This document shows, in pieces, positions 4,190 through 38,240 of a stretch of DNA of 38,240 nucleotides. Source of the stretch: a virus. Its lineage: Duplodnaviria > Caudoviricetes. The notes below the pieces were generated by a model, which was not told where the DNA came from, searched no databases, and worked only from the letters and a program-made list of their open reading frames with translations. The stretch covers positions 1-38,240 of the IMG/VR virus record IMGVR_UViG_3300042923_000172, one strand, 5' to 3'. Numbering within the stretch: the first letter of the stretch is position 1; each line of letters begins with the position of its first letter. Both the position numbers and the translations under genes were made by a program.

Positions 4190-4963
4190 ATGAAACACAT
4201 TATTAGTTTTTCCGGCGGGATCGGTTCATACATGGCCGCAAAACGAGTTATTGAGGAGCATGGAGCGGAAAACACTTTATTAGTTTTTACAGATACAAAA
4301 ATCGAGGATAATGATTTATATAGGTTTATGGATGATGCTGTTAAAGATTTAGGGGCCGAGTTTATAAAATTACAGGATGGACGGGATGTTTGGCAAGTAT
4401 TTTTCGATGAGAAATATATCGGTAACACCCGCAACGGCAATTGCACTCGCAATTTAAAACAAATTGTTTTTCGTAAATGGATTGAGGAGAATTATGCACC
4501 GGATCAATGCATTGTTTATATTGGCATTGATTGGAGCGAAGAATACCGGTATCAAAAGGCAATACCGCATTGGTTGCCATATACTGTAAAAGCGCCAATG
4601 TGTGATGCGCCATTTATGGATAAAAAAGAAATGTTTGAGGTTTTAAAAAATAGGGGCATTGAGTTGCCGAGGTTGTACCAAATGGGGTTTGCACATAATA
4701 ATTGCGGCGGTTTTTGCGTAAAGGCGGGCCATGGGCATTTTAAAAACCTATTGGAAAAGATGCCGGATCGTTTTAAATACCATGAAGAAAAAGAGCAAGA
4801 GTGGCAAATGGTAACCGGCAAAAAAAATACTATTTTAAGAGACAGAGCGGGCGGCAAAACAAAGCCATTAACATTAAAAGAGTTTAGAGAAAAAATAGAA
4901 AACGATAATATTAAACAATTAGATTTTGAAGATATTGGCGGGTGTGGTTGTTACCCGTACTAA
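4190..4963 (+). CDS. PAPS-reductase-like PP-loop (adenine nucleotide alpha hydrolase) protein, Cys-rich
   Basis: ISFSGGIGS PP-loop variant, CTRNLK, HNNCGGFCVKAG, C-terminal GGCGC. Confidence 0.75.
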   Translation: MKHIISFSGGIGSYMAAKRVIEEHGAENTLLVFTDTKIEDNDLYRFMDDAVKDLGAEFIKLQDGRDVWQVFFDEKYIGNTRNGNCTRNLKQIVFRKWIEENYAPDQCIVYIGIDWSEEYRYQKAIPHWLPYTVKAPMCDAPFMDKKEMFEVLKNRGIELPRLYQMGFAHNNCGGFCVKAGHGHFKNLLEKMPDRFKYHEEKEQEWQMVTGKKNTILRDRAGGKTKPLTLKEFREKIENDNIKQLDFEDIGGCGCYPY

Positions 4964-8870: not shown

Positions 8871-9605
8871 ATGGAAAGAATGAATGTAAAATTATTAGCA
8901 CACACAAAAATTGAATGTGATTTTGAAGCGGAAATGATCGAAGCGGGGTTTAATTACAACGCAACCCACGGCCAAGTATTAGCTTTATCAGCTATTCGCA
9001 CATGTTACAGTCACACGGAGCCAAGCAAAATTGCGTTAGAAGAAGGGCAAAAGTATTTTGGCACTAAAGCAAAAGAGGGTGAGGGCACCGATGCCGATAG
9101 ACTGATTAGGCATATTATCAATAGCGGCCATACAAGCACCATGGAACATATTAACTTTACATTTGCGGTTGAAGGGGTTAGCCGCTCATTATTGGCCCAA
9201 TTAACGAGGCATAGGCATTTTAGTTATTCAGTTCAATCACAAAGATACACCCGTTTTGAAAGTGATTCTAAAAGCGGTGGATTTGATTATGTAACGCCGC
9301 CAACAGTACAGGATAAAGAATTAGAGTTCGCCTATAAAAACATAATGGACTATATACAAAGTATGTATGATTGGTTGAGGGAAAGAGGATTAAAAGCAGA
9401 GGATGCACGTTATATATTACCAAATGCCACGACATGTAATTTAACATTTACGGGCAATTTGAGGGGGTTATTGGAGTTTTACAGTAAACGAAACCCAAAT
9501 ACCCACGCTCAATGGGAAATACAAGAATTTGCCGAAAAAATCAAAGAGGCGGTTATTGATGTGGAGCCTTGGACAAAACAATTTTTCGAGGTTGCTAGTA
9601 AATGA
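8871..9605 (+). CDS. thyX: FAD-dependent thymidylate synthase
   Basis: GHTSTMEH, RHRHFSYSVQSQRY signature, EDARYILP, HAQWEI. Confidence 0.95.
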   Translation: MERMNVKLLAHTKIECDFEAEMIEAGFNYNATHGQVLALSAIRTCYSHTEPSKIALEEGQKYFGTKAKEGEGTDADRLIRHIINSGHTSTMEHINFTFAVEGVSRSLLAQLTRHRHFSYSVQSQRYTRFESDSKSGGFDYVTPPTVQDKELEFAYKNIMDYIQSMYDWLRERGLKAEDARYILPNATTCNLTFTGNLRGLLEFYSKRNPNTHAQWEIQEFAEKIKEAVIDVEPWTKQFFEVASK

Positions 9606-9922
9606 GTTTTAATCAAGGTTGGTTTTGCAAAGAATGTGGCCCGGTTAAAGAAAGTAAAAAACGATCCATTGCAAAAGTACAATATGATTGTTGTAAAGAT
9701 TGCGGCGGGATCGTTACCGAATGGGAGCGGCCATTAAACGAACGAGCCGGAAGGTGCCGCAATTGTGCGGCATCCGGTTTTGAAATGGCTATTCACAAAG
9801 GGCATTTAATACGGAATTGCAAAACGTGTAACGAGGTTTACGACATTGATGCTGATAAGTTAATACAAAAAGGAAAAGAGGAGTTTAAATATGAGCGATC
9901 AAAAAAGCAACGCATTGGATAG
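9602..9922 (+). CDS. Multi-CxxC zinc-binding protein
   Basis: Four CxxC pairs. Confidence 0.6.
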   Translation: MSFNQGWFCKECGPVKESKKRSIAKVQYDCCKDCGGIVTEWERPLNERAGRCRNCAASGFEMAIHKGHLIRNCKTCNEVYDIDADKLIQKGKEEFKYERSKKQRIG

Positions 9923-10283
9923 GTACCAAGAGGCAACAGGGCGTACAGCTAACCATGATTTTGCGGCAATTATTGGCCGTATGCAAGATAACCCGGTGTT
10001 AATTGAGTTAGCTAATTATGCATTAGGAGCGGCAGGAGAGGCCGGAGAGATTGCGGATATTGTTAAAAAGGTTGTATTCCATGGGCACCCACTAACGCAA
10101 GAGGTTATTGGTGAAATTGTTAAAGAGTGCGGGGATGAATTATGGTACATTGCCCGAGCAACAGCCGCATTAAAGGTTAAGTTATCCAAGGTTGCCGGCG
10201 GTAATATCCAAAAGTTAAAGGATCGTTACCCCGAGGGTTTTGACGAACAAAAGAGCATTAACCGAGAGGAGGCCCCACAATAA
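9891..10283 (+). CDS. MazG-like nucleotide pyrophosphohydrolase
   Basis: GEAGEIADIVKK...ECGDELWY...NIQKLKDRYPEGF. Confidence 0.85.
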   Translation: MSDQKSNALDRYQEATGRTANHDFAAIIGRMQDNPVLIELANYALGAAGEAGEIADIVKKVVFHGHPLTQEVIGEIVKECGDELWYIARATAALKVKLSKVAGGNIQKLKDRYPEGFDEQKSINREEAPQ

Positions 10284-11088: not shown

Positions 11089-11433
11089 GGGGCGGCATCC
11101 ATGGCCAAGAAAAAACCAAACAAAGAGCAACGGGATAAAATACGAGCCGAGCGGGCCGATATTTACGAGCAAGGGTTTAACCATGGGTACCAAATGGGTT
11201 ATGAGGAAGGATTAAAAAAGGGTTGGGAACAAAACCAACGAAATGTAATTAAATTTGCAAATAGAGGGAGGTAACAACCATGCCAAAGAAATTTTTATAT
11301 GCTGATGAAGGATTTAAAGAACAACTAGCAGAGTTTATGCAACGAATTAACCCAAAACCAACGGGCGCAGAATTAGAAGAATTAAAGAAAAAGTATGAGG
11401 ATGAACGGGCCGCATACATACAAGGTAAAAAAC

Positions 11434-11853
11434 ATGCGGCCAACATGGGATAGTACATTTATTGCGGTTGCTGAAATTATAGCCAAACGATCAACATGCA
11501 AGCGGGCCAATGTTGGTTGCGTTTTAGTGGATCGTAACAATCGAATTATCGCAACAGGATATAACGGCGCAATACACGGGCATAAACATTGTTTGGATAT
11601 TGGTTGTCTAACGAATAGTGAGGGGCGTTGTATTCGTTGCATACATGCCGAACAAAATGCACTATTGCATGCTAAACAGGATTTAACAGGGTGTACAGCT
11701 TATGTCACACATGAACCATGCGAAACGTGCGCCAAGTTATTAAACCAAGCCGGTATTGATAAAGTTATATTTTTAAAGGCGTACCCAAACCCATACAATA
11801 AACATTTTAAAACACGGGTTTGGTTGCAACACAAAGGCAATATGGAGGGGTAA
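11434..11853 (+). CDS. dCMP deaminase (ComEB-like)
   Basis: RPTWD start, RSTC, ATGYNG, HAEQNA, PCETC. Confidence 0.9.
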   Translation: MRPTWDSTFIAVAEIIAKRSTCKRANVGCVLVDRNNRIIATGYNGAIHGHKHCLDIGCLTNSEGRCIRCIHAEQNALLHAKQDLTGCTAYVTHEPCETCAKLLNQAGIDKVIFLKAYPNPYNKHFKTRVWLQHKGNMEG

Positions 11854-26109: not shown

Positions 26110-26829
26110 ATGATTGGCGTGATTTTCGGAAATTTAACTGTATTGGGCGAAGTAGGTAAGAACAAAAGAGGTATTTTATTTGAATGTATTTGCAAGTGTG
26201 GAAACAAAAGAGTTTTTCCGGGTAAAGATTTAAGGAGCGGCAATAATAAAAGTTGCGGTTGTTTATTAAAGAAACATGGAATGTCGAGCACACGGATTTA
26301 TATATCTTGGCAAAACATGAAAAAAAGATGCAACGATCCGAATTACAAGGATTTTAAAAATTATGGTGGCCGTGGCATTAAATATTGTGAAAAGTGGGAA
26401 ACGTTTGAAGGGTTTTATGAGGATATGAAAGAAGGTTATGAGGATAGTTTAACATTGGATAGAATCAATGTAGATGGAGATTACACCCTAGATAATTGCC
26501 GTTGGGTTACTTTAAAAGAACAAAGTAACAATAAACGTAACAATCATTTTTTAGAGTATAACGGCGAAGTTTTAACGCTATCTCAAATGGCTAATAAATA
26601 CAACATTGATTTTGAATTGTTTCGCCATCGAATAAAAAAAGGTTGGTCAGTTGAAAAGGCTTTATCTAATAAAACAGAATTAGAGGTTATAAGTTTTAAA
26701 GGTGAAATAAAAACAGTTTCAGAGTTTGCTAAAGAATATGGCATGACCTATCATCAATTAAAAAAACGATTAATGAGGAATTGGACGGTTGAAAGAGCGT
26801 TAACTCAACCATTAAGAAAAAGACAGTAA
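26110..26829 (+). CDS. Putative HNH homing endonuclease (YGGRGI-type)
   Basis: CICKCG, SCGC, YGGRGIKYC, LDRINVDGDYTLDNCRW; duplicated C-terminal HTH-like repeats. Confidence 0.8.
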   Translation: MIGVIFGNLTVLGEVGKNKRGILFECICKCGNKRVFPGKDLRSGNNKSCGCLLKKHGMSSTRIYISWQNMKKRCNDPNYKDFKNYGGRGIKYCEKWETFEGFYEDMKEGYEDSLTLDRINVDGDYTLDNCRWVTLKEQSNNKRNNHFLEYNGEVLTLSQMANKYNIDFELFRHRIKKGWSVEKALSNKTELEVISFKGEIKTVSEFAKEYGMTYHQLKKRLMRNWTVERALTQPLRKRQ

Positions 26830-32937: not shown

Positions 32938-33040
32938 TTCGGTTTCTAGGAGAATTGAGTGGTATGGTTTACCGAATGTCTTTTGAAATGGATATCGACG
33001 GAAAAACAAAGGAATATATGGTGATAGTTAATAACTTAGA

Positions 33041-33059
33041 TTAGCGAACAATTTGGAAA
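33041..33059 (+). repeat. Cassette-boundary site E (left arm only)
   Basis: TTAGCGAACAA TTTGGAAA, then RBS GGAGG. Confidence 0.55.
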
Positions 33060-33072
33060 GGAGGAATAAAAA

Positions 33073-33228
33073 ATGCAAGATAAATATCTAATCATTTATC
33101 AAAATTCAGCTTGTTTGTTTAGAAGAGAAATTGTCAGTGTAGAGGATTTGAGTTATTGGGTAGATAAAATCGTTAATGATTATAAAGGTGAGATTTTCAC
33201 CATTAGCAAATGCTTAGTTAGTGCGTAA
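33073..33228 (+). CDS. Hypothetical protein (51 aa; cassette E-F)
   Basis: MQDKYLIIYQNSACLFRRE...CLVSA; RBS AAGGGAGG. Confidence 0.6.
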   Translation: MQDKYLIIYQNSACLFRREIVSVEDLSYWVDKIVNDYKGEIFTISKCLVSA

Positions 33229-33247
33229 TTCGAAAATTTCACGACAA
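33218..33247 (+). repeat. Cassette-boundary site F
   Basis: TTAGTGCGTAA TTCGAAAA TTTCACGACAA. Confidence 0.55.
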
Positions 33248-33437
33248 AACAAAAATAGTTTTAATGACCATGCATTTTTTACTATATGGCCGCATAGCTA
33301 TATAGCAAGCATGCTAATAGCTAGTGAGATGATCCGGGAGAAATTTTCCCGGATTTTTTTATTTTTTCGGAAATCTATTTACAAAATTATAAAAATACGA
33401 TATTATCGCTAATATCAAAATGAAGGAGGAATTAGCA

Positions 33438-34070
33438 ATGAATAGATTTTCAAGGCCGGTAGCTTTTAATAAAACAAAGGATGTTGACGTTGCTATTTTA
33501 AAACATTTGGAAGGAGTGGCCTCATTTTCCGGGTATGTAAAAAAATTAATAATACAAGATATTAACGTTGGCGGAACAATGAAAAAAAACACGTTAAAAA
33601 AACACTTAGAACATATTGATTTGGATCGGGTTACGATAATCGAAAAATTACCAAAAACCAAGTTGCATGCAAGATGGGTAACAATGAAACATCGTTGTTA
33701 TGAAGTTACCAATAATAACTATGAAAATTATGGCGGGCGTGGCATAACCGTTTGCGATCGTTGGCACGACTTTAATTTATTTTTAGAAGATGTTTTTGAT
33801 AGTTATATTGACCACGTTATAGAATACGGTGAAAAAAATACAACGCTTGAAAGAGTGGATAACAATAAAGGTTATAGTCCAGAAAATTGCCGTTGGGCAA
33901 CACATGAGGAACAAGTTACTAACCGCCGTTATAGATACAGTTATGAATACAACAATAAAACATATAATACGGCGCATAGCTTGGCAATTGAATTGGGTAT
34001 AAGTACGCAAGCTGTAAATAACATGGTGAAAAAAGGAGAAGTAAAAAAACGAGCCAACAAGGCCCGTTAA
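33438..34070 (+). CDS. RHH-like domain fused to a YGGRGI-type HNH endonuclease
   Basis: N-terminal RPVAFN...SFSGYVKKLIIQD; C-terminal YGGRGITVCDRW...LERVDNNKGYSPENCRW. Confidence 0.7.
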   Translation: MNRFSRPVAFNKTKDVDVAILKHLEGVASFSGYVKKLIIQDINVGGTMKKNTLKKHLEHIDLDRVTIIEKLPKTKLHARWVTMKHRCYEVTNNNYENYGGRGITVCDRWHDFNLFLEDVFDSYIDHVIEYGEKNTTLERVDNNKGYSPENCRWATHEEQVTNRRYRYSYEYNNKTYNTAHSLAIELGISTQAVNNMVKKGEVKKRANKAR

Positions 34071-34183
34071 AATAATATCCAACTAATTTCTTCAAGTAAC
34101 CACATAAATCCAACACATACCAAGAGGAATAAGACTAAACCAGAATAAAGTAAAATAACTAATTTATTTTCGTTTAAATCCAT
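34067..34183 (-). CDS. Antisense membrane micropeptide (38 aa)
   Basis: MDLNENKLVILLYSGLVLFLLVCVGFMWLLEEISWILF; RBS GGAGG. Confidence 0.6.
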   Translation of the reverse strand: MDLNENKLVILLYSGLVLFLLVCVGFMWLLEEISWILF

Positions 34184-34517
34184 ATAAATCCTCCAAAACA
34201 GTTTTAGCGGTCGGGCAAGGATTTGGGCAAATTCTAGTAGAAGCCCAACCGCATAATTTTATTATCGTCAAACAATCACAAAACAATACATGCAAAGTTG
34301 GCCATTTCGGAATTAAAAACGGAATGGTTTTTTTATTTTTATTTTTTGTGTTTTTGGAATAGGACAAATTATATACGGAATATTCTTTATTAAATACCGC
34401 AACAGAAGAAAAACAGGAATATTCCAAACCGCCATTTATAAAGGTTTTGCGGTAGAAAAGAACATTCCTATTTTCAGAAACTATTTACGCAGTAAATATT
34501 AAAAAGGGAGTGGTGAA

Positions 34518-35795
34518 ATGATATTCGAGGTTGGATCGTCAATCATTATGGCCGGCATAGCGGGGTTTGCTTATTTTAAAACAAATGGACCGGCAACAAA
34601 TGACAAAGAAAAAATTCAGAAAATATTCGATAATTCAAATTGGACCGGCAAAAACGGCGAAACAATTCGATTGCACAGAAAGGCAAGTTTTAAAGGTGGC
34701 ACAGAGTATGTTTATCAATTGCCGCTAGGTTTTGACCGTAAAAAGATTGAGAGCCACAAACACATTTTAGAAGATGGGTTGAACGTTAAACAAAAAATTG
34801 AATTTGATCCAAGCGAATTATTAAAAATCAATTGGAGGCAACCGATCGTAAAACAAATTAGAAAAATTCTAACAGACAAGAAAACAGCTAAGAAGGAAAT
34901 AGAAATTAATTTTGATGGAATGTTGCGGATCAAAGTTTATAACGAACAAATGGATAACAAAATTGATTGGGCCGAAAGTATGTTAAAACCCGGAACCTAT
35001 TCGGTAGTTATTGGCGCAACAAGGGATGGCCTAATTTATCACGATTTCGATAAATCGAAGCATTTAATTATTGCAGGGGTTCCGGGGTCGGGGAAAAGTG
35101 TCGTAATGAAAATGATTATTATCTCTTTAGTTCTTTCCAACCCGAATAACGTTGTTTTTAGTCTAATTGATTTAAAGGGTGGCCCGGCGTTTGCTAGGTT
35201 TAGAAATACCAAACAAGTTAAAAACTTAGGAGTTGACAACGAACAAGCGAAAAGCATTTTAAGAGACGTTAAAGAGGAAATGGATAACATTTATAAAAAT
35301 GTATTAGTGCCAAATGGTTATGAGGATGTAAGTGAGGCCGGCATAAAAAAACGGCATTTTATTATCGTGGATGAGGCGGCGGATTTAGCAAGCGATAAAG
35401 AGGCTGTTGAGTTATTAACCGATATAGTACGAAAAGGAAGAGGGAGCGGCCATTATGTCATTTATGCCACTCAATACCCAACAGTCCAAACGGTTGCAAG
35501 CCAAATAAAACGGAACATACCGGCCCGGCTAACCTATGTATTAGATAGTGCGATTGCATCAAATGCGGTATTAGATACCAATGGGGCGGAGGAATTACCG
35601 GAGATACCCGGTAGAGGGATTTATAAGATGGTTAAATCGCAAATTATCCAAACCCCATTTATAAGTAACAAAGACATAGAAACACTAATTAAACCGCACG
35701 TTATTATACAAGCACGAAAGGATGGGCAACATGGACAAAACGGCGGCCAAGCAACAACGGATCGAAAACATTCTATTGAGTTTAAAAAGATTTGA
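34518..35795 (+). CDS. FtsK/SpoIIIE (VirD4/coupling-protein-like) ATPase with N-terminal membrane anchor
   Basis: HLIIAGVPGSGKS, IDLKGG, FIIVDEAADL, RKGRGSG, ATQYP. Confidence 0.9.
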   Translation: MIFEVGSSIIMAGIAGFAYFKTNGPATNDKEKIQKIFDNSNWTGKNGETIRLHRKASFKGGTEYVYQLPLGFDRKKIESHKHILEDGLNVKQKIEFDPSELLKINWRQPIVKQIRKILTDKKTAKKEIEINFDGMLRIKVYNEQMDNKIDWAESMLKPGTYSVVIGATRDGLIYHDFDKSKHLIIAGVPGSGKSVVMKMIIISLVLSNPNNVVFSLIDLKGGPAFARFRNTKQVKNLGVDNEQAKSILRDVKEEMDNIYKNVLVPNGYEDVSEAGIKKRHFIIVDEAADLASDKEAVELLTDIVRKGRGSGHYVIYATQYPTVQTVASQIKRNIPARLTYVLDSAIASNAVLDTNGAEELPEIPGRGIYKMVKSQIIQTPFISNKDIETLIKPHVIIQARKDGQHGQNGGQATTDRKHSIEFKKI

Positions 35796-36318
35796 TTACC
35801 TAACAAGAGCGCAATTACAATTTATCCACAATTTGAAAGGTGATCGAAACGCAAACCGCATTTTAACTGGTATGGATGAGTATTTACATCATTTTCGTCA
35901 TGGATTGGAAAAAGTTTATTATTTGAGCAAAGCGGGGCGGGAAAGAGTAGGGGCGGAAGTGGTGCGAAAAAAAACGCCGAACATTCAACACTTTTTATTG
36001 AGAAATCAATTGTGGATTCATTTGGGTTATCCGCACACTTGGGAAAATGAAATAAAAATAACTGTTAAAGATATTTCCGTTGTGTGCGATGCAAAATTTA
36101 ATATGAAGGATAAAAATTTAGGCATTGTTGAGGTTGATATATCACAACCAATGATTAAGAACAAAGCCAAAATAGACAAATATCGAAAGATTAAAGAAAT
36201 GACAGGTAATGAATTTCATTTGATTTGGGTAACAGAATTGGAAAGCCGAAAAACAAAACTATTGGAGTTGATGAAAGGATTGCCGGGGCATGTATTCACA
36301 TTGAAAGAAATAAAATAA
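35722..36318 (+). CDS. Replication-relaxation (Replic_Relax/MOBC-like) protein
   Basis: wHTH N-terminus (YLTRAQL...VYYLSKAG), HFLLRN, CDA...VEVD...KIDKY. Confidence 0.8.
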   Translation: MGNMDKTAAKQQRIENILLSLKRFDYLTRAQLQFIHNLKGDRNANRILTGMDEYLHHFRHGLEKVYYLSKAGRERVGAEVVRKKTPNIQHFLLRNQLWIHLGYPHTWENEIKITVKDISVVCDAKFNMKDKNLGIVEVDISQPMIKNKAKIDKYRKIKEMTGNEFHLIWVTELESRKTKLLELMKGLPGHVFTLKEIK

Positions 36319-36330
36319 GGAGTTGGAACA

Positions 36331-36459
36331 ATGAAACAGAAAGCGAAAAAACCGATCAAGAAAAAACCAACGAAAAAGAAAAAGATTTCAGCTAAACAAA
36401 TTGCTACCGCCGTTGGATTTGGATTTAAAGTTTATAAGGCCATTAAACGGAGAGGATGA
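36331..36459 (+). CDS. Small highly basic protein (42 aa)
   Basis: MKQKAKKPIKKKPTKKKKIS...; RBS AAGGAG. Confidence 0.5.
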   Translation: MKQKAKKPIKKKPTKKKKISAKQIATAVGFGFKVYKAIKRRG

Positions 36460-36986
36460 TTAACATGGCATTGTTTAAAAAACGTGAGGAAACGTATAAT
36501 TTTGGGGAGTTTATGCGTAAAGAGGGTAAATGTGCGCCGAAGGTTGAAAAGTCGCAAAAAGAGCAAGTTTTGGAGGTTGTAGAGGGGTTAGCAACAATGA
36601 CATTAGTTGCAACGGCGGCAAAGATTGTATTGCCTGTTAGTTTGGTGGGTGTGCCATTGGTATTAATGGCAAGTAAAAAAGTCATGGCGGCAACCATGAC
36701 CAGTTCACAAGTTATTCCAATTCAAGGCGAAGCTATTATGGTTGGTGCTATTCCGGGAGCGATTAAAGAGAAAATTGTTCATTCGTTTGATCCGTTAATT
36801 GATTTGATGGTTGGGTTATCGTTACCAATTGCCGGAGTGATGTTAACAGGTGGTGCATTAATGATATTGGTCGGTATGAAAGATCGTGGTATGCAATTAA
36901 TTCTTAATTCTAGTTTAGGTTATATCTTAGTTCAAATGTCACCGTTATTCATTAGCATGTTGGCCGGAATCGGTGGGGCTATTTAA
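36456..36986 (+). CDS. Membrane protein with TrbC/VirB2 pilin-like C-terminal half
   Basis: FDPLIDLMVGLSLPIAGVMLTGGALMILVG...LGYILVQMSPLF hydrophobic hairpin. Confidence 0.55.
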   Translation: MINMALFKKREETYNFGEFMRKEGKCAPKVEKSQKEQVLEVVEGLATMTLVATAAKIVLPVSLVGVPLVLMASKKVMAATMTSSQVIPIQGEAIMVGAIPGAIKEKIVHSFDPLIDLMVGLSLPIAGVMLTGGALMILVGMKDRGMQLILNSSLGYILVQMSPLFISMLAGIGGAI

Positions 36987-37042
36987 GATAATAAATATTC
37001 AGCATAACCTAATAACATGATGATAAAGAAATATAAAATCAT
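36983..37042 (-). CDS. Antisense membrane micropeptide (19 aa)
   Basis: MILYFFIIMLLGYAEYLLS; RBS AAGGAG 9 nt upstream. Confidence 0.45.
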   Translation of the reverse strand: MILYFFIIMLLGYAEYLLS

Positions 37043-37400
37043 TTTGCCCATCTCCTTTTAAACTGGTTGATAATTTTTATTATCGCCAGTCTTTTTGTTT
37101 TTATACATTTTTTAAACTTTCGTTTTTATTGCAAGCGGTTTTATAGTTTGTTAGTATATGTTTTAGGGTGAAATTGCATAACTTGGTTTGTAGAAGTACT
37201 AGAGGGCCTATGATTGGCCTTTTTCTCACCGTTGGGCCGATTTTCCGGGCGGCCGATCCAACGTATTCAATGCCCGGGCAAAGGTTACGGAAATAACCAA
37301 AAATACTTTATTCGTGATTCAGTATTTTAAATTCCGTTAATTCGACACTTTCAAAAATCCGGTTGTTAGGTGTAGCACCGGATATTTTTTTATCCTATGC

Positions 37401-37430
37401 GTTTACAAAGTAAACAAAGTGAGGTAATAT
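37401..37430 (+). promoter_or_regulatory. SigA-like promoter with GTTTAC-N3-GTAAAC operator
   Basis: TTTACA-17-TAATAT; same palindrome as at 4128. Confidence 0.65.
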
Positions 37431-37456
37431 GAAAATATTAACAAAGGAGGGGTAAT

Positions 37457-37606
37457 ATGAAAAAAATATTCGATTACGTTATTTTGTTAGATGATATTGT
37501 TTTAGATCAAGGTGAGGTTGAGGCTATGAATGGATTAGAGGCAGAGGAAGCATTAGAATGGTTATATCCTAATTCAAGATATGTAATCACAGAAAAACGC
37601 AAATAA
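37457..37606 (+). CDS. Hypothetical protein (49 aa)
   Basis: MKKIFDYVILLDDIVLDQG...; RBS AAGGAGG. Confidence 0.55.
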   Translation: MKKIFDYVILLDDIVLDQGEVEAMNGLEAEEALEWLYPNSRYVITEKRK

Positions 37607-37671
37607 CAGTAATAGCGATAGGAGCGGCCGCATATATTGTATTGTAAGACATTTCGAGGAGGTAATAGCGC

Positions 37672-37824
37672 ATGAAAAAGGTTGTTATTGGAGTGAATCC
37701 AAATGGTGAATACTATGTAATTAGTTGTCCTAAAAAAATCATTGTAGAGTTTAAACAACAAAAGAAAAAGACATTGAAAAGGAAACTAAAAACCATTTGG
37801 TACAAAATTAAAGCGAGGGTTTAA
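37672..37824 (+). CDS. Hypothetical basic protein (50 aa)
   Basis: MKKVVIGVNPNGEYY...; RBS GAGGAGG. Confidence 0.55.
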   Translation: MKKVVIGVNPNGEYYVISCPKKIIVEFKQQKKKTLKRKLKTIWYKIKARV

Positions 37825-37898
37825 CCTTTGCTTTTTTTGTTTGCATATTGAATACAATTTGTATACAATGTAGATACAAACATAAAGGAGTGATTACA

Positions 37899-38126
37899 TT
37901 GGCAGAAAATTTCAGAACGGCCAAGTTAGAAAAATTCATCGCAAAACAAGTGGGGTTAATGGAACATCAACAACGGACAATTGAAGGTGCTAAAAAACAA
38001 GGTATCGCTGAATCTGTACTTTCAATTCTTCAAACAAACCAAACAGTAACATATAACTACACATTTGATTTGTGCCGAGAGTTTGGGATTGAAATGCCTC
38101 ATGTTTTAGGGGTTACGCCAAAATGA
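37899..38126 (+). CDS. Hypothetical protein, translationally coupled (ATGA) to the HNH gene across the circular junction
   Basis: TTG start after AAAGGAG. Confidence 0.6.
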   Translation: MAENFRTAKLEKFIAKQVGLMEHQQRTIEGAKKQGIAESVLSILQTNQTVTYNYTFDLCREFGIEMPHVLGVTPK

Positions 38127-38240
38127 TAGGAAAGAGGTTTGAAAGATTAACCGTTGTTGATTATGTTGGTTTGGATAAATATAAATTAAAAATTTGGAAA
38201 TGTATTTGCGATTGTGGAAACACAAAAAACGTTAAAGGAA

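What the first reader, a model, noticed from the sequence alone, without database searches (positions are those of the whole stretch)
33438..36986. Minimal DNA-transfer module (coupling ATPase + relaxase + pilin-like protein) in a phage lacking an integrase
Seen: an operon of membrane-anchored FtsK/VirD4-like ATPase, overlapping Replic_Relax-like protein, basic micropeptide and VirB2-like membrane protein. It is preceded by an RHH-domain gene and a ~330-bp non-coding gap. Known: MOBC-type mobilisation (e.g. CloDF13 MobB/MobC) needs only a coupling protein and a relaxase, and FtsK plus Replic_Relax pairs occur in other Bacillus phages without a function established to my knowledge. Inference: the module could move the phage circle across a membrane (into the forespore, or by hijacking a conjugation channel), or maintain it as an extrachromosomal element.
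Basis: partly seen in the sequence, partly recalled or inferred. Interest (0 to 1): 0.75.

Follow-up and report, generated by a model that had tools for sequence, protein, structure and literature searches.

The report
Phage DNA pump for entering spores
A soil phage carries a small gene set (DNA pump, DNA-cutting enzyme, pilin-like membrane protein) found almost only in viruses of spore-forming bacteria, preceded by a conserved DNA hairpin that is likely the cut site and a promoter predicted to fire during spore formation, so it likely moves the phage genome into the developing spore, which nobody has tested.

Summary
The operon is real. The window is a whole circular 38,113-bp phage with no integrase found. 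It carries ftsK, a MOBC-family (Replic_Relax) nuclease with intact catalytic residues, a basic micropeptide and a pilin-like protein. The 'RHH gene' is an RHH-HNH fusion.

The gene set is not new. It is the 'DNA translocation operon' noted in Bacillus phages in 2012, with function unknown, and it occurs with or without integrases.

Two cis features were not found in print by my searches. (1) An oriT-like element just before ftsK: TTC-N9-GVRAC, a perfect covarying hairpin, then GTGGYG. The hairpin is present in 74 of 85 non-redundant loci (1.9 expected) and in 15 of 20 held-out loci. (2) A family-wide sigmaE-type promoter with a SpoIIID-like box, though the window's own copy is weak.

The relaxase was in 19 of 272 spoIVA-positive and 0 of 129 spoIVA-negative Bacilli genomes. 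SPP1 and SPO1 carry sister modules.

Best reading (about 50%): delivery of phage DNA from mother cell to forespore. Nicking, transfer and timing are all untested.

The parts
33272..33365 (+). Conserved element upstream of the RHH gene: sigmaE-like two-block motif, small hairpin (33296-33322), then an intrinsic terminator (33331-33365). Shared with SPP1 gene 31, GBK2, Sam46, PBC1, S4-4 and SplendidRed.
   Evidence: Alignment; folds; sigmaE matrix gives >=10 bits in 5 of 8 RHH upstream regions, but not for the window's own copy; terminator
33399..33416 (+). Palindromic operator-like box before the RHH gene, overlapping a sigmaA-like promoter (33378-33406); RHH autoregulation is inferred
33438..34070 (+). 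RHH-like domain (SPP1 gp31 family) fused to an HNH endonuclease
34067..34183 (-). 38-aa single-helix membrane peptide with an RBS, convergent with the RHH gene
34357..34386 (+). sigmaE-type promoter candidate (GAATAGG, 15 nt, AATATTCT) with a SpoIIID-like box (TAGGACAAAT, 34360-34369) in the spacer; a weak copy of a family-wide motif
34408..34475 (.). Imperfect inverted repeat with GAA-N2-TTC boxes; not significant family-wide
   Evidence: DNA fold z -2.05; family test 9.5 vs 8.9 matches of 16
34465..34515 (+). oriT-like core: TTC (34465), GAAAC (34477-34481), 7-bp hairpin (34482-34498), GTGGTG (34510-34515, putative nick region overlapping the ftsK RBS); single copy in the genome
34518..35795 (+). 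FtsK/SpoIIIE-type ATPase with a short N-terminal hydrophobic anchor; Walker A (G192, K193) and Walker B (D285, E286) invariant; no gamma-domain hit
35731..36318 (+). Replic_Relax/MOBC nuclease: winged helix (1-76) plus PD-(D/E)XK domain; D120, E134, D136, K147 and Y151 invariant in 81 of 81
36331..36459 (+). 42-aa basic micropeptide; optional slot, with a close homologue in L089, similar basic peptides in L004, L024, L093, L106, L108, and small membrane proteins in L001, L020, L082, L085, L091
   Evidence: 16 loci inspected
36456..36986 (+). Pilin-like membrane protein (probable start 36465): variable leader, conserved Ala78, then a confident helical hairpin (about 100-176); homologous to SPP1 gp31.1

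Best explanation
This is a conserved phage operon for an FtsK-type DNA pump, a MOBC-family nuclease and a pilin-like membrane protein, which is predicted to be switched on in the mother cell of a sporulating host, would cut the phage genome beside a conserved hairpin, and would likely pump it across the spore septum so that the phage survives inside the spore. Steps: (1) Shown: the genes, their fixed order and overlap, intact active sites, and the conserved hairpin element. (2) Inferred from consensus matches: sigmaE turns the operon on after polar septation and SpoIIID shuts it off, giving a pulse during engulfment. (3) Inferred from MOBC homology: the nuclease binds upstream phased boxes with its winged helix and nicks at or near GTG/GYG, about 11 nt 3' of the hairpin. 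(4) Predicted with weak support: the nuclease docks on the FtsK motor, standing in for the gamma domain. (5) Inferred: FtsK and the pilin-like protein make a short channel through the two septal membranes, which would explain why no VirB4, VirB6, VirB8 or wall hydrolase is encoded with it.
For: Coupling: ftsK abuts the relaxase in 146 of 148 loci, always in the +1 frame, across 14 linker lengths in 81 of 81 non-redundant loci. A pilin-like gene follows in 123 of 148.

Cis site: hairpin with stem >=5 in 74 of 85 loci against 1.85 in shuffles. Strict form at the site in 47 of 85 and only 2 times elsewhere in 2.67 Mb. 99.1% of cells pair, 6 of 7 pairs are compensatory, and there is one G-U (33 sequences that I chose for similar stem length). 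15 of 20 held-out loci have it. In a protein-blind 18-mer search, 6 of the 7 hits with the full element precede ftsK. GTG/GYG resembles the CloDF13 nick GGGTG/GTCGGG (PMC5935869, passages).

Timing: sigmaE pattern in 45 of 85 forward, 4 reverse, 7.2 shuffled; with a SpoIIID-like spacer box 25 of 85 against 0.56, and 5 of 647 control regions; no sigmaK, sigmaF or sigmaG excess. A matrix from 19 published B. subtilis sigmaE promoters gives mean 7.22 bits against 5.97 +/- 0.20 shuffled. The same layout occurs at B. subtilis cwlD and ybaN (PMC517825 Table S2). The divergent XRE gene has a sigmaH-like promoter in 16 of 85 against 1.8.

Host range: relaxase in 19 of 272 spoIVA-positive and 0 of 129 spoIVA-negative genomes, Fisher p 0.0007. 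103 of 105 phage records are Bacillus or Geobacillus; the 2 Staphylococcus records are 98% identical to Bacillus phage DZ1 over 2.6 kb. The sister ATPase occurs in 131 records, all named after spore-forming genera or the thermophilic phage D6E. In SPO1 it shares an operon with a ParM-like protein and a Replic_Relax gene.

FtsK-relaxase complex: weak support, score 0.43 against best control 0.00; contact agreement >=46%; partner pLDDT >=84; the mark was reached by 116 of 157 solved and 2 of 215 mismatched pairs, and both mismatches scored under 0.60. SPO1 forms virospores (PMC12991052, passages). Deleting the related operons leaves plaque growth normal (PMC3357382, PMC6316719).
Against: No activity, expression or localisation is shown.

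The window's own promoter is a weak match: it is under 8.6 bits and not among the 33 best sites in the genome. The sigmaE signal replicates only modestly in held-out loci: regex 5 of 20 forward against 3 reverse, composite 0 of 20; matrix 6.29 against 5.18 +/- 0.47, with the best of 40 shuffles at 6.54. The regex patterns were chosen after seeing the motif. No sigmaE match was found before the SPO1 operon (6.0 bits).

The host-range test is not corrected for kinship, and the profile was built from Bacillaceae sequences. GTGG overlaps the RBS in most loci, although it keeps its place where the RBS is elsewhere. The motif is absent from the likely pAM373 oriT region, and the CloDF13 nick lies in a long repeat arm rather than after a small hairpin.

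Integrated prophages reach the forespore with the chromosome, yet many keep the module. The pilin-like fold is not separable from generic helical hairpins. One Halomonas phage and one unnamed phage hit the FtsK search and were not examined. One locus is labelled Nocardioides (L097), although its sequence is close to Niallia L095.
Confidence: 0.5

Rival explanations
1. Virion-free spread between neighbouring cells, for example in chains or biofilms: the module pumps phage DNA from one cell to another, as Streptomyces TraB does. Pathria et al. proposed this in 2012.
For: The parts are conjugation-like, there is an oriT-like site, and TraB, TcpA and CedB-type profiles hit the ATPase weakly. It would explain why integrated prophages keep the module.
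Against: No VirB4-like second ATPase was found near the module in 148 loci, and no wall hydrolase other than the phage lysin appeared among the neighbour clusters. The idea does not predict the restriction to spore formers or the sigmaE and SpoIIID motifs.
Confidence: 0.15
2. Mobilisation in trans: like CloDF13 MobB/MobC, the phage circle borrows the mating pore of a co-resident conjugative plasmid or ICE.
For: MOBC relaxase plus its own coupling ATPase is the CloDF13 layout (PMC12857230 section 17), and the nick-like motif fits.
Against: A pilin-like subunit is unnecessary for this. Virulent phages spend little time with helper plasmids. Streptococcal, enterococcal and staphylococcal hosts are rich in helpers (recalled), yet the relaxase was not found in 129 spoIVA-negative genomes.
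Confidence: 0.08
3. Replication or maintenance: the nuclease nicks a rolling-circle origin, and FtsK clears or segregates phage circles at division septa during a carrier state.
For: A hairpin plus nick site also describes rolling-circle origins (recalled). Many carriers are plasmid-like prophages (124 plasmid records). RacA-like MerR/DUF3967 genes sit within about 4 kb in 30 of 148 loci, mostly downstream. PMC11526630 assigns the operon to replication and segregation by similarity only.
Against: The window has its own replication genes and no repressor or Par system was found. The module also sits in integrated prophages. The pilin-like protein and the mother-cell promoter are unexplained. 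Related operons are dispensable for growth.
Confidence: 0.14
4. Host or competitor interference: a membrane-bound motor and nuclease that blocks sporulation, degrades mother-cell DNA or excludes superinfecting DNA.
For: The top structural neighbours are PD-(D/E)XK defence and repair nucleases. Expression in the mother cell would fit this too.
Against: A single dedicated covarying site on the phage's own DNA, next to the genes, points to self-processing. Homology is to relaxases.
Confidence: 0.1

Closest known systems
'DNA translocation operon' of Bacillus phages (0305phi8-36 orf200-207; SPO1 gp27.3/27.4; Bacillus virus 1 gp40, GBSV1, Gamma), Pathria et al. 2012, PMC3357382 (passages read)
   Same: MobC-related relaxase next to a coupling ATPase and membrane proteins. 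Bacillus virus 1, named in that paper, is the top cultured hit (45% identity). Non-essential in the laboratory.
   Different: That paper proposes biofilm spread and has no occurrence of 'spor'; the passages read describe no cis site or promoter. This copy uses an anchored FtsK and a pilin-like protein, with no VirB6 or actin.
SPP1 gp31/gp31.1/gp31.2/gp32 putative translocon (Godinho et al. 2018, PMC6316719, passages read)
   Same: Same RHH-like protein (61% identity), homologous pilin-like protein (hhalign 87%, E 4e-6), and the same upstream hairpin-terminator element. Non-essential and of unknown function.
   Different: SPP1 has an 836-aa TrwB/VirB4-like ATPase and no relaxase in that operon. 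The ftsK-type hairpin element was not found at the module in TP-84, PBC5 or 5 other such loci.
MOBC mobilisation regions (CloDF13 MobB/MobC; pAD1 TraX; pAM373)
   Same: Winged helix plus PD-(D/E)XK relaxase, adjacent coupling ATPase, and a GTG/G motif like the CloDF13 nick.
   Different: FtsK-type rather than VirD4-type ATPase, own pilin-like subunit, different oriT anatomy, phage context, sporulation-type promoter; no transfer shown.
Host SpoIIIE/FtsK and Streptomyces TraB
   Same: FtsK motor family; SpoIIIE moves DNA into the forespore (recalled; also stated in the Pony genome note PMC3853050, whole text read).
   Different: Short anchor, no gamma-domain hit, and paired with a nuclease and a dedicated hairpin site.

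Membership tests
MOBC / Replic_Relax relaxase | Profile match and homology to a typed MOBC relaxase | tested here: met
   PF13814 33.6 bits against cut-off 25.3; hhalign to the pAM373 relaxase 93%, 163 columns
MOBC / Replic_Relax relaxase | N-terminal winged helix plus PD-(D/E)XK fold with D..ExE/D..K..Y residues | tested here: met
   Model pLDDT 96; fold matches; residues invariant in 81 of 81
MOBC / Replic_Relax relaxase | Site-specific nicking of a cognate oriT | not testable with these tools
   A candidate site is defined but no activity was measured
MOBC mobilisation region | Nick-site sequence and oriT anatomy like CloDF13 or pAD1/pAM373 | tested here: inconclusive
   Resembles GGGTG/GT of CloDF13; the surroundings differ; motif not seen in the pAM373 intergenic regions
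FtsK/SpoIIIE-type coupling protein | FtsK ATPase domain with intact Walker motifs | tested here: met
FtsK/SpoIIIE-type coupling protein | N-terminal membrane anchor | tested here: inconclusive
   Hydrophobic N-terminus in 84 of 85 start calls, but below a 19-residue threshold in the window
VirB2/T4SS pilin | Profile match, and leader plus two-helix hairpin | tested here: met
   51 of 81 homologues hit PF18895, but the window protein itself does not; hairpin model
VirB2/T4SS pilin | Fold closer to pilins than to other helical hairpins; processing and assembly | tested here: inconclusive
   Archaeal conjugation pilin Z 7.0 (rmsd 2.9, 73 aligned) and H-pilus Z 6.8 (rmsd 2.8, 65 aligned) are tied with unrelated hairpins
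Self-transmissible Gram-positive T4SS | VirB4 ATPase in the locus | tested here: not met
   No second large conjugative ATPase near the module in 148 loci, only ABC and RecF-type proteins; none in the window
sigmaE/SpoIIID regulon | Promoter consensus match | tested here: inconclusive
   Significant family-wide, modest in held-out loci, weak in the window
sigmaE/SpoIIID regulon | sigE-dependent transcription and SpoIIID binding | not testable with these tools
   Needs an experiment
Bacillus-phage 'DNA translocation operon' (Pathria 2012) | MobC-like relaxase, adjacent coupling ATPase and membrane protein in a phage | tested here: met

The most novel reading that the evidence does not exclude
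Phages of spore-forming bacteria, including SPP1 and SPO1, encode their own mother-cell-to-forespore 'internal conjugation' machine. It consists of a sigmaE-timed pump, a pilin-derived septal pore and, in this branch, a relaxase with a hairpin oriT. It comes in interchangeable FtsK-type and VirB4/TrwB-type versions under a shared RHH regulator, and it actively loads phage genomes into spores after the septum has closed.
Probability: 0.45. Interest if true: 0.9.

Novelty: new member of a known kind. Interest (0 to 1): 0.62.

Why it matters
How lytic phages get trapped in spores is an old open question. The 2026 paper read here credits borrowed host segregation genes and identifies no intracellular mechanism (PMC12991052). 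This genome has no parS-like site within 2 mismatches (motif recalled). The module is carried by over 100 phage records, with sister forms in another 131, and is dispensable on growing lawns. A defined candidate cut site and candidate promoter make its function directly testable in B. subtilis. If true, it would be conjugation-type transfer between two compartments of one sporangium, and a route for long-term phage persistence in soil and in spore-based fermentations.

Tried and rejected
Programmed frameshift to an FtsK-relaxase fusion: the relaxase has its own RBS and start, and no shared slippery site was evident in the printed overlaps (output partly cut). One in-frame fusion (L080) sits at an 11-nt duplication.

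Module as a substitute for integrase: rejected.

Known RNA family: no Rfam match in 33200-38240. An RNA reading of the hairpin is disfavoured by 1 G-U in 227 cells.

Large inverted repeat as a family feature: not significant. sigmaF, sigmaG, sigmaK, sigmaA and Spo0A patterns: no excess.

Sequence search of the PDB with the relaxase profile: nothing under E 0.1. Foldseek of the pilin-like model: nothing under E 0.001. Direct comparison with CloDF13 MobC failed because that record is frameshifted.

No RNA holder was listed for the region. The pilin profile hit only 3 of 401 phylum-wide genomes, which was uninformative. The B83 paper has no FtsK mention.

Ten paper searches listed no functional study and no description of the hairpin or promoter. 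Subscription journals and bioRxiv supplements were not searchable, and they may hold one.
Full report
WHAT THE WINDOW IS. The 38,240 bases end in a 127-bp repeat, and the gene broken at the ends reads through once it is removed, so this is a circular 38,113-bp phage genome. Two soil-metagenome runs hold 38,143-bp contigs that match 33000-37600 without differences (they may be its source). Pfam and PHROGs on 63 ORFs give replication (O-like initiator, G39P, DnaB), head, tail and lysis genes, but no integrase, repressor or partition protein. Recombinase profiles built from related loci found nothing in six frames. It looks virulent.

OBSERVATION. The four genes are as described, with corrections. 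The relaxase starts at 35731. The upstream 'RHH gene' is a domain of about 46 aa, 61% identical to SPP1 gp31, fused to an HNH nuclease. A 38-aa membrane peptide lies on the minus strand. The ATPase is FtsK-type with invariant Walker motifs and a short anchor. The relaxase model (pLDDT 96) is a winged helix plus a PD-(D/E)XK domain. D120, E134, D136, K147 and Y151 are invariant in 81 of 81 sequences, and the family aligns to the MOBC relaxase of pAM373 (93%, E 3e-7). The 176-aa protein is pilin-like by family (51 of 81 hit PF18895). Its fold is a helical hairpin that cannot be told from generic ones.

FAMILY. I fetched 147 loci (the viral scan kept the best 80 of 241, and the set includes duplicates). 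Counting the window, ftsK abuts the relaxase in 146 of 148, always in the +1 frame, with 14 linker lengths among 81 non-redundant pairs. A pilin-like gene follows in 123 of 148 by clustering (91 by the stricter profile). A divergent XRE gene precedes ftsK in 122 of 146 loci but not in the window. A branch without the pilin (L128-L146, Pony) has a small hydrophobic gene upstream instead. Lysis genes lie upstream in 95 of 129 loci with enough flank and a recombinase lies in the flank of 44 of 147, so the module is not a stand-in for an integrase.

SISTER MODULE. The same pilin and RHH families also accompany a 720-900-aa TrwB/VirB4-like ATPase in TP-84, PBC5, SPP1, GBK2, Sam46, PBC1 and 0105phi7-2. 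That ATPase hits 131 phage records. In SPO1 it shares an operon with a ParM-like protein, three small hydrophobic proteins and a Replic_Relax gene, and that relaxase hits 65 records, all Bacillus. The window is a mosaic: an SPP1-type RHH unit in front of an FtsK-type machine.

THE CIS ELEMENT. Upstream regions were reduced to 85 non-redundant ones out of 145. Within 150 nt of the ftsK start, 74 of 85 carry a perfect hairpin (stem >=5) that begins right after an AAC/GAC-type triplet. Shuffles gave 1.85 (maximum 6) and the stretch further upstream gave 1. The 75 copies with stem >=4 and a GTG motif have 35 different stems, with fixed TTC (C 98%) and G-V-R-A-C upstream, and GTG 24-28 nt from the stem start in 64 of 75. 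The strict form occurs at the site in 47 of 85 and only twice elsewhere in 2.67 Mb; the window has one copy, at 34482. On 33 sequences chosen for similar stem length, 99.1% of cells pair, 6 of 7 pairs change on both sides, and only one cell is G-U, which favours a DNA hairpin. In 20 held-out loci, 15 have it.

A protein-blind search for one 18-mer variant in metagenomes gave 18 hits. Six precede ftsK, all among the 7 that also carry the flanking motifs; the other 11 have neither. A second pattern gave 6 of 6 in viral contigs, all seen before. GTG/GYG resembles the CloDF13 nick (PMC5935869), but the surroundings differ, the motif is missing from the pAM373 gaps, and it usually overlaps the RBS. 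So an oriT is likely, and the exact nick position is a guess.

TIMING. De novo motif search further upstream found a two-block motif with GGACAA in the spacer (log-likelihood 481 against 102 shuffled). It matches mapped sigmaE promoters and SpoIIID sites in Table S2 of PMC517825 (supplement rows, section 14 and passages seen; also passages of PMC3789822 and PMC5025042). B. subtilis cwlD and ybaN have the box in the same place. The sigmaE pattern is in 45 of 85 forward, 4 reverse and 7.2 shuffled; with the box it is in 25 of 85 against 0.56, and in 5 of 647 control regions. sigmaK, sigmaF and sigmaG show no excess, and the divergent XRE gene has a sigmaH-like promoter in 16 of 85 against 1.8.

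These patterns were chosen after seeing the motif. An independent matrix from 19 published promoters gave 7.22 against 5.97 +/- 0.20 bits in the training set, 6.29 against 5.18 +/- 0.47 in the held-out set (the best of 40 shuffles was higher, 6.54), and >=10 bits for 5 of 8 RHH upstream regions. By regex the held-out set gave 5 of 20 forward against 3 reverse, and 0 of 20 for the composite. The window's own site (34357-34386) fits the pattern but scores under 8.6 bits. Sporulation timing is therefore a family-level inference.

HOST RANGE. Among 401 Bacilli genomes, 19 hold the relaxase and 272 hold spoIVA. All 19 are spoIVA-positive (Fisher p 0.0007, or 0.0012 without the seed genome; kinship not corrected). 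Of 105 phage records (GenBank and RefSeq duplicates included), 103 are Bacillus or Geobacillus. The two Staphylococcus records are 98% identical to Bacillus phage DZ1 over 2.6 kb, and ftsK is annotated in two pieces in both. All 124 plasmid records are Bacillus, Priestia, Geobacillus, Brevibacillus or Cytobacillus. Unresolved: one Nocardioides-labelled contig (L097) and one Halomonas phage in the FtsK search.

MECHANISM. A phage that infects a cell committed to sporulation is left in a mother cell that will lyse (established knowledge). A sigmaE pulse, cut off by SpoIIID, would make the proteins during engulfment, when two membranes with thinning wall between them separate mother cell and forespore. 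That would explain why a pump, a relaxase and one pilin-like subunit suffice, with no VirB4. The relaxase would bind the upstream boxes, nick next to the hairpin and hand the DNA to FtsK. The complex prediction is weak support (0.43 against 0.00; mark reached by 116 of 157 solved and 2 of 215 mismatched pairs; agreement >=46%, pLDDT >=84). Genes, conservation and the element are shown; expression, nicking, docking, pore and direction are inferred. I put this at 0.5, cell-to-cell spread at 0.15, replication or maintenance at 0.14, interference at 0.10 and helper mobilisation at 0.08. The main puzzle for the favoured reading is why integrated prophages keep the module.

WHAT IS KNOWN. Pathria et al. 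2012 (PMC3357382, passages) named this relaxase-coupling-protein operon in Bacillus phages, including this copy's closest cultured relative. They found it dispensable, proposed biofilm spread, and did not mention spores. Godinho et al. 2018 (PMC6316719, passages) flagged SPP1 gp31-32 as a possible translocon of unknown role. The Pony note (PMC3853050, whole text) suggested DNA injection, and PMC11526630 (one passage) suggested segregation. PMC12991052 (passages) shows SPO1 virospores and notes gene 27.9, but identifies no intracellular mechanism. For MOBC biology I read PMC12857230 (section 17 and passages) and PMC7117660 (passages). Ten searches listed no functional test and no account of the hairpin or promoter. 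Earlier notes of this scan raise the spore idea and a mother-cell promoter for related cassettes (seen after my analysis and not independent evidence); none came up for the hairpin.

VERDICT. This is a new member of a known but functionally dark module. The added value is a sharply defined candidate oriT and a sporulation-type promoter that make forespore delivery directly testable. Interest 0.62.

Noticed in passing
window 33272-33365; L209:1122-1222, L221:4028-4128, L222:4033-4125: A covarying hairpin followed by a terminator, behind a sigmaE-like motif, upstream of gp31-type RHH genes in 7 of 8 regions compared. It could be a small mother-cell RNA of about 60 nt, or the cis site of the relaxase-free module. 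No Rfam match.
   Followed up: partly
window 34067-34183 (-); L149:4856-4960 and L153:4860-4960 (-): A short hydrophobic ORF on the opposite strand follows the RHH gene here and, by reading the printed sequence, also in TP-84 and PBC5. It could be an exclusion or inhibitor peptide.
   Followed up: no
window 38123-38240 joined to 1-636, 26110-26829, 33438-34070, 2186-2659: Four HNH endonuclease genes; the first three are 33-39% identical to each other, and one has fused to the RHH gene.
   Followed up: partly
L210:441-5951 (SPO1 27.9-27.3): A ParM-like actin, a putative adaptor, three small hydrophobic proteins, a 906-aa ATPase and a Replic_Relax protein form one operon in a model lytic phage known to form virospores.
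   Followed up: partly
L236:1575-1810: An orphan copy of the full hairpin element in a phage-like contig, with no ftsK within 1.6 kb downstream; possibly a hitchhiking oriT or a remnant.
   Followed up: partly
L080:8738-10579: In-frame FtsK-relaxase fusion at an 11-nt duplication of the RBS region; 1 of 148 loci.
   Followed up: partly
L044-L079, L105-L114 and two others: A RacA-like MerR/DUF3967 gene lies within about 4 kb of the module in 30 of 148 loci, mostly downstream in B. cereus-group elements. RacA anchors DNA at the pole in sporulation (recalled).
   Followed up: no
L001:after 6579 and L209:2049-2366: The small membrane protein in the slot between relaxase and pilin in L001 shares the motif EWFIE.GRVDQY with SPP1 gp31.2, another link between the two module types.
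   Followed up: no
L227 (OR670591) and OR670592: Two records named Staphylococcus phages are 98% identical to Bacillus phage DZ1 in this region; their host assignment is doubtful.
   Followed up: partly
window 4190-4963, 8871-9605, 9891-10283, 11395-11853: PAPS-reductase-like, ThyX, MazG and dCMP deaminase genes; a possible nucleotide or DNA-modification set.
   Followed up: no
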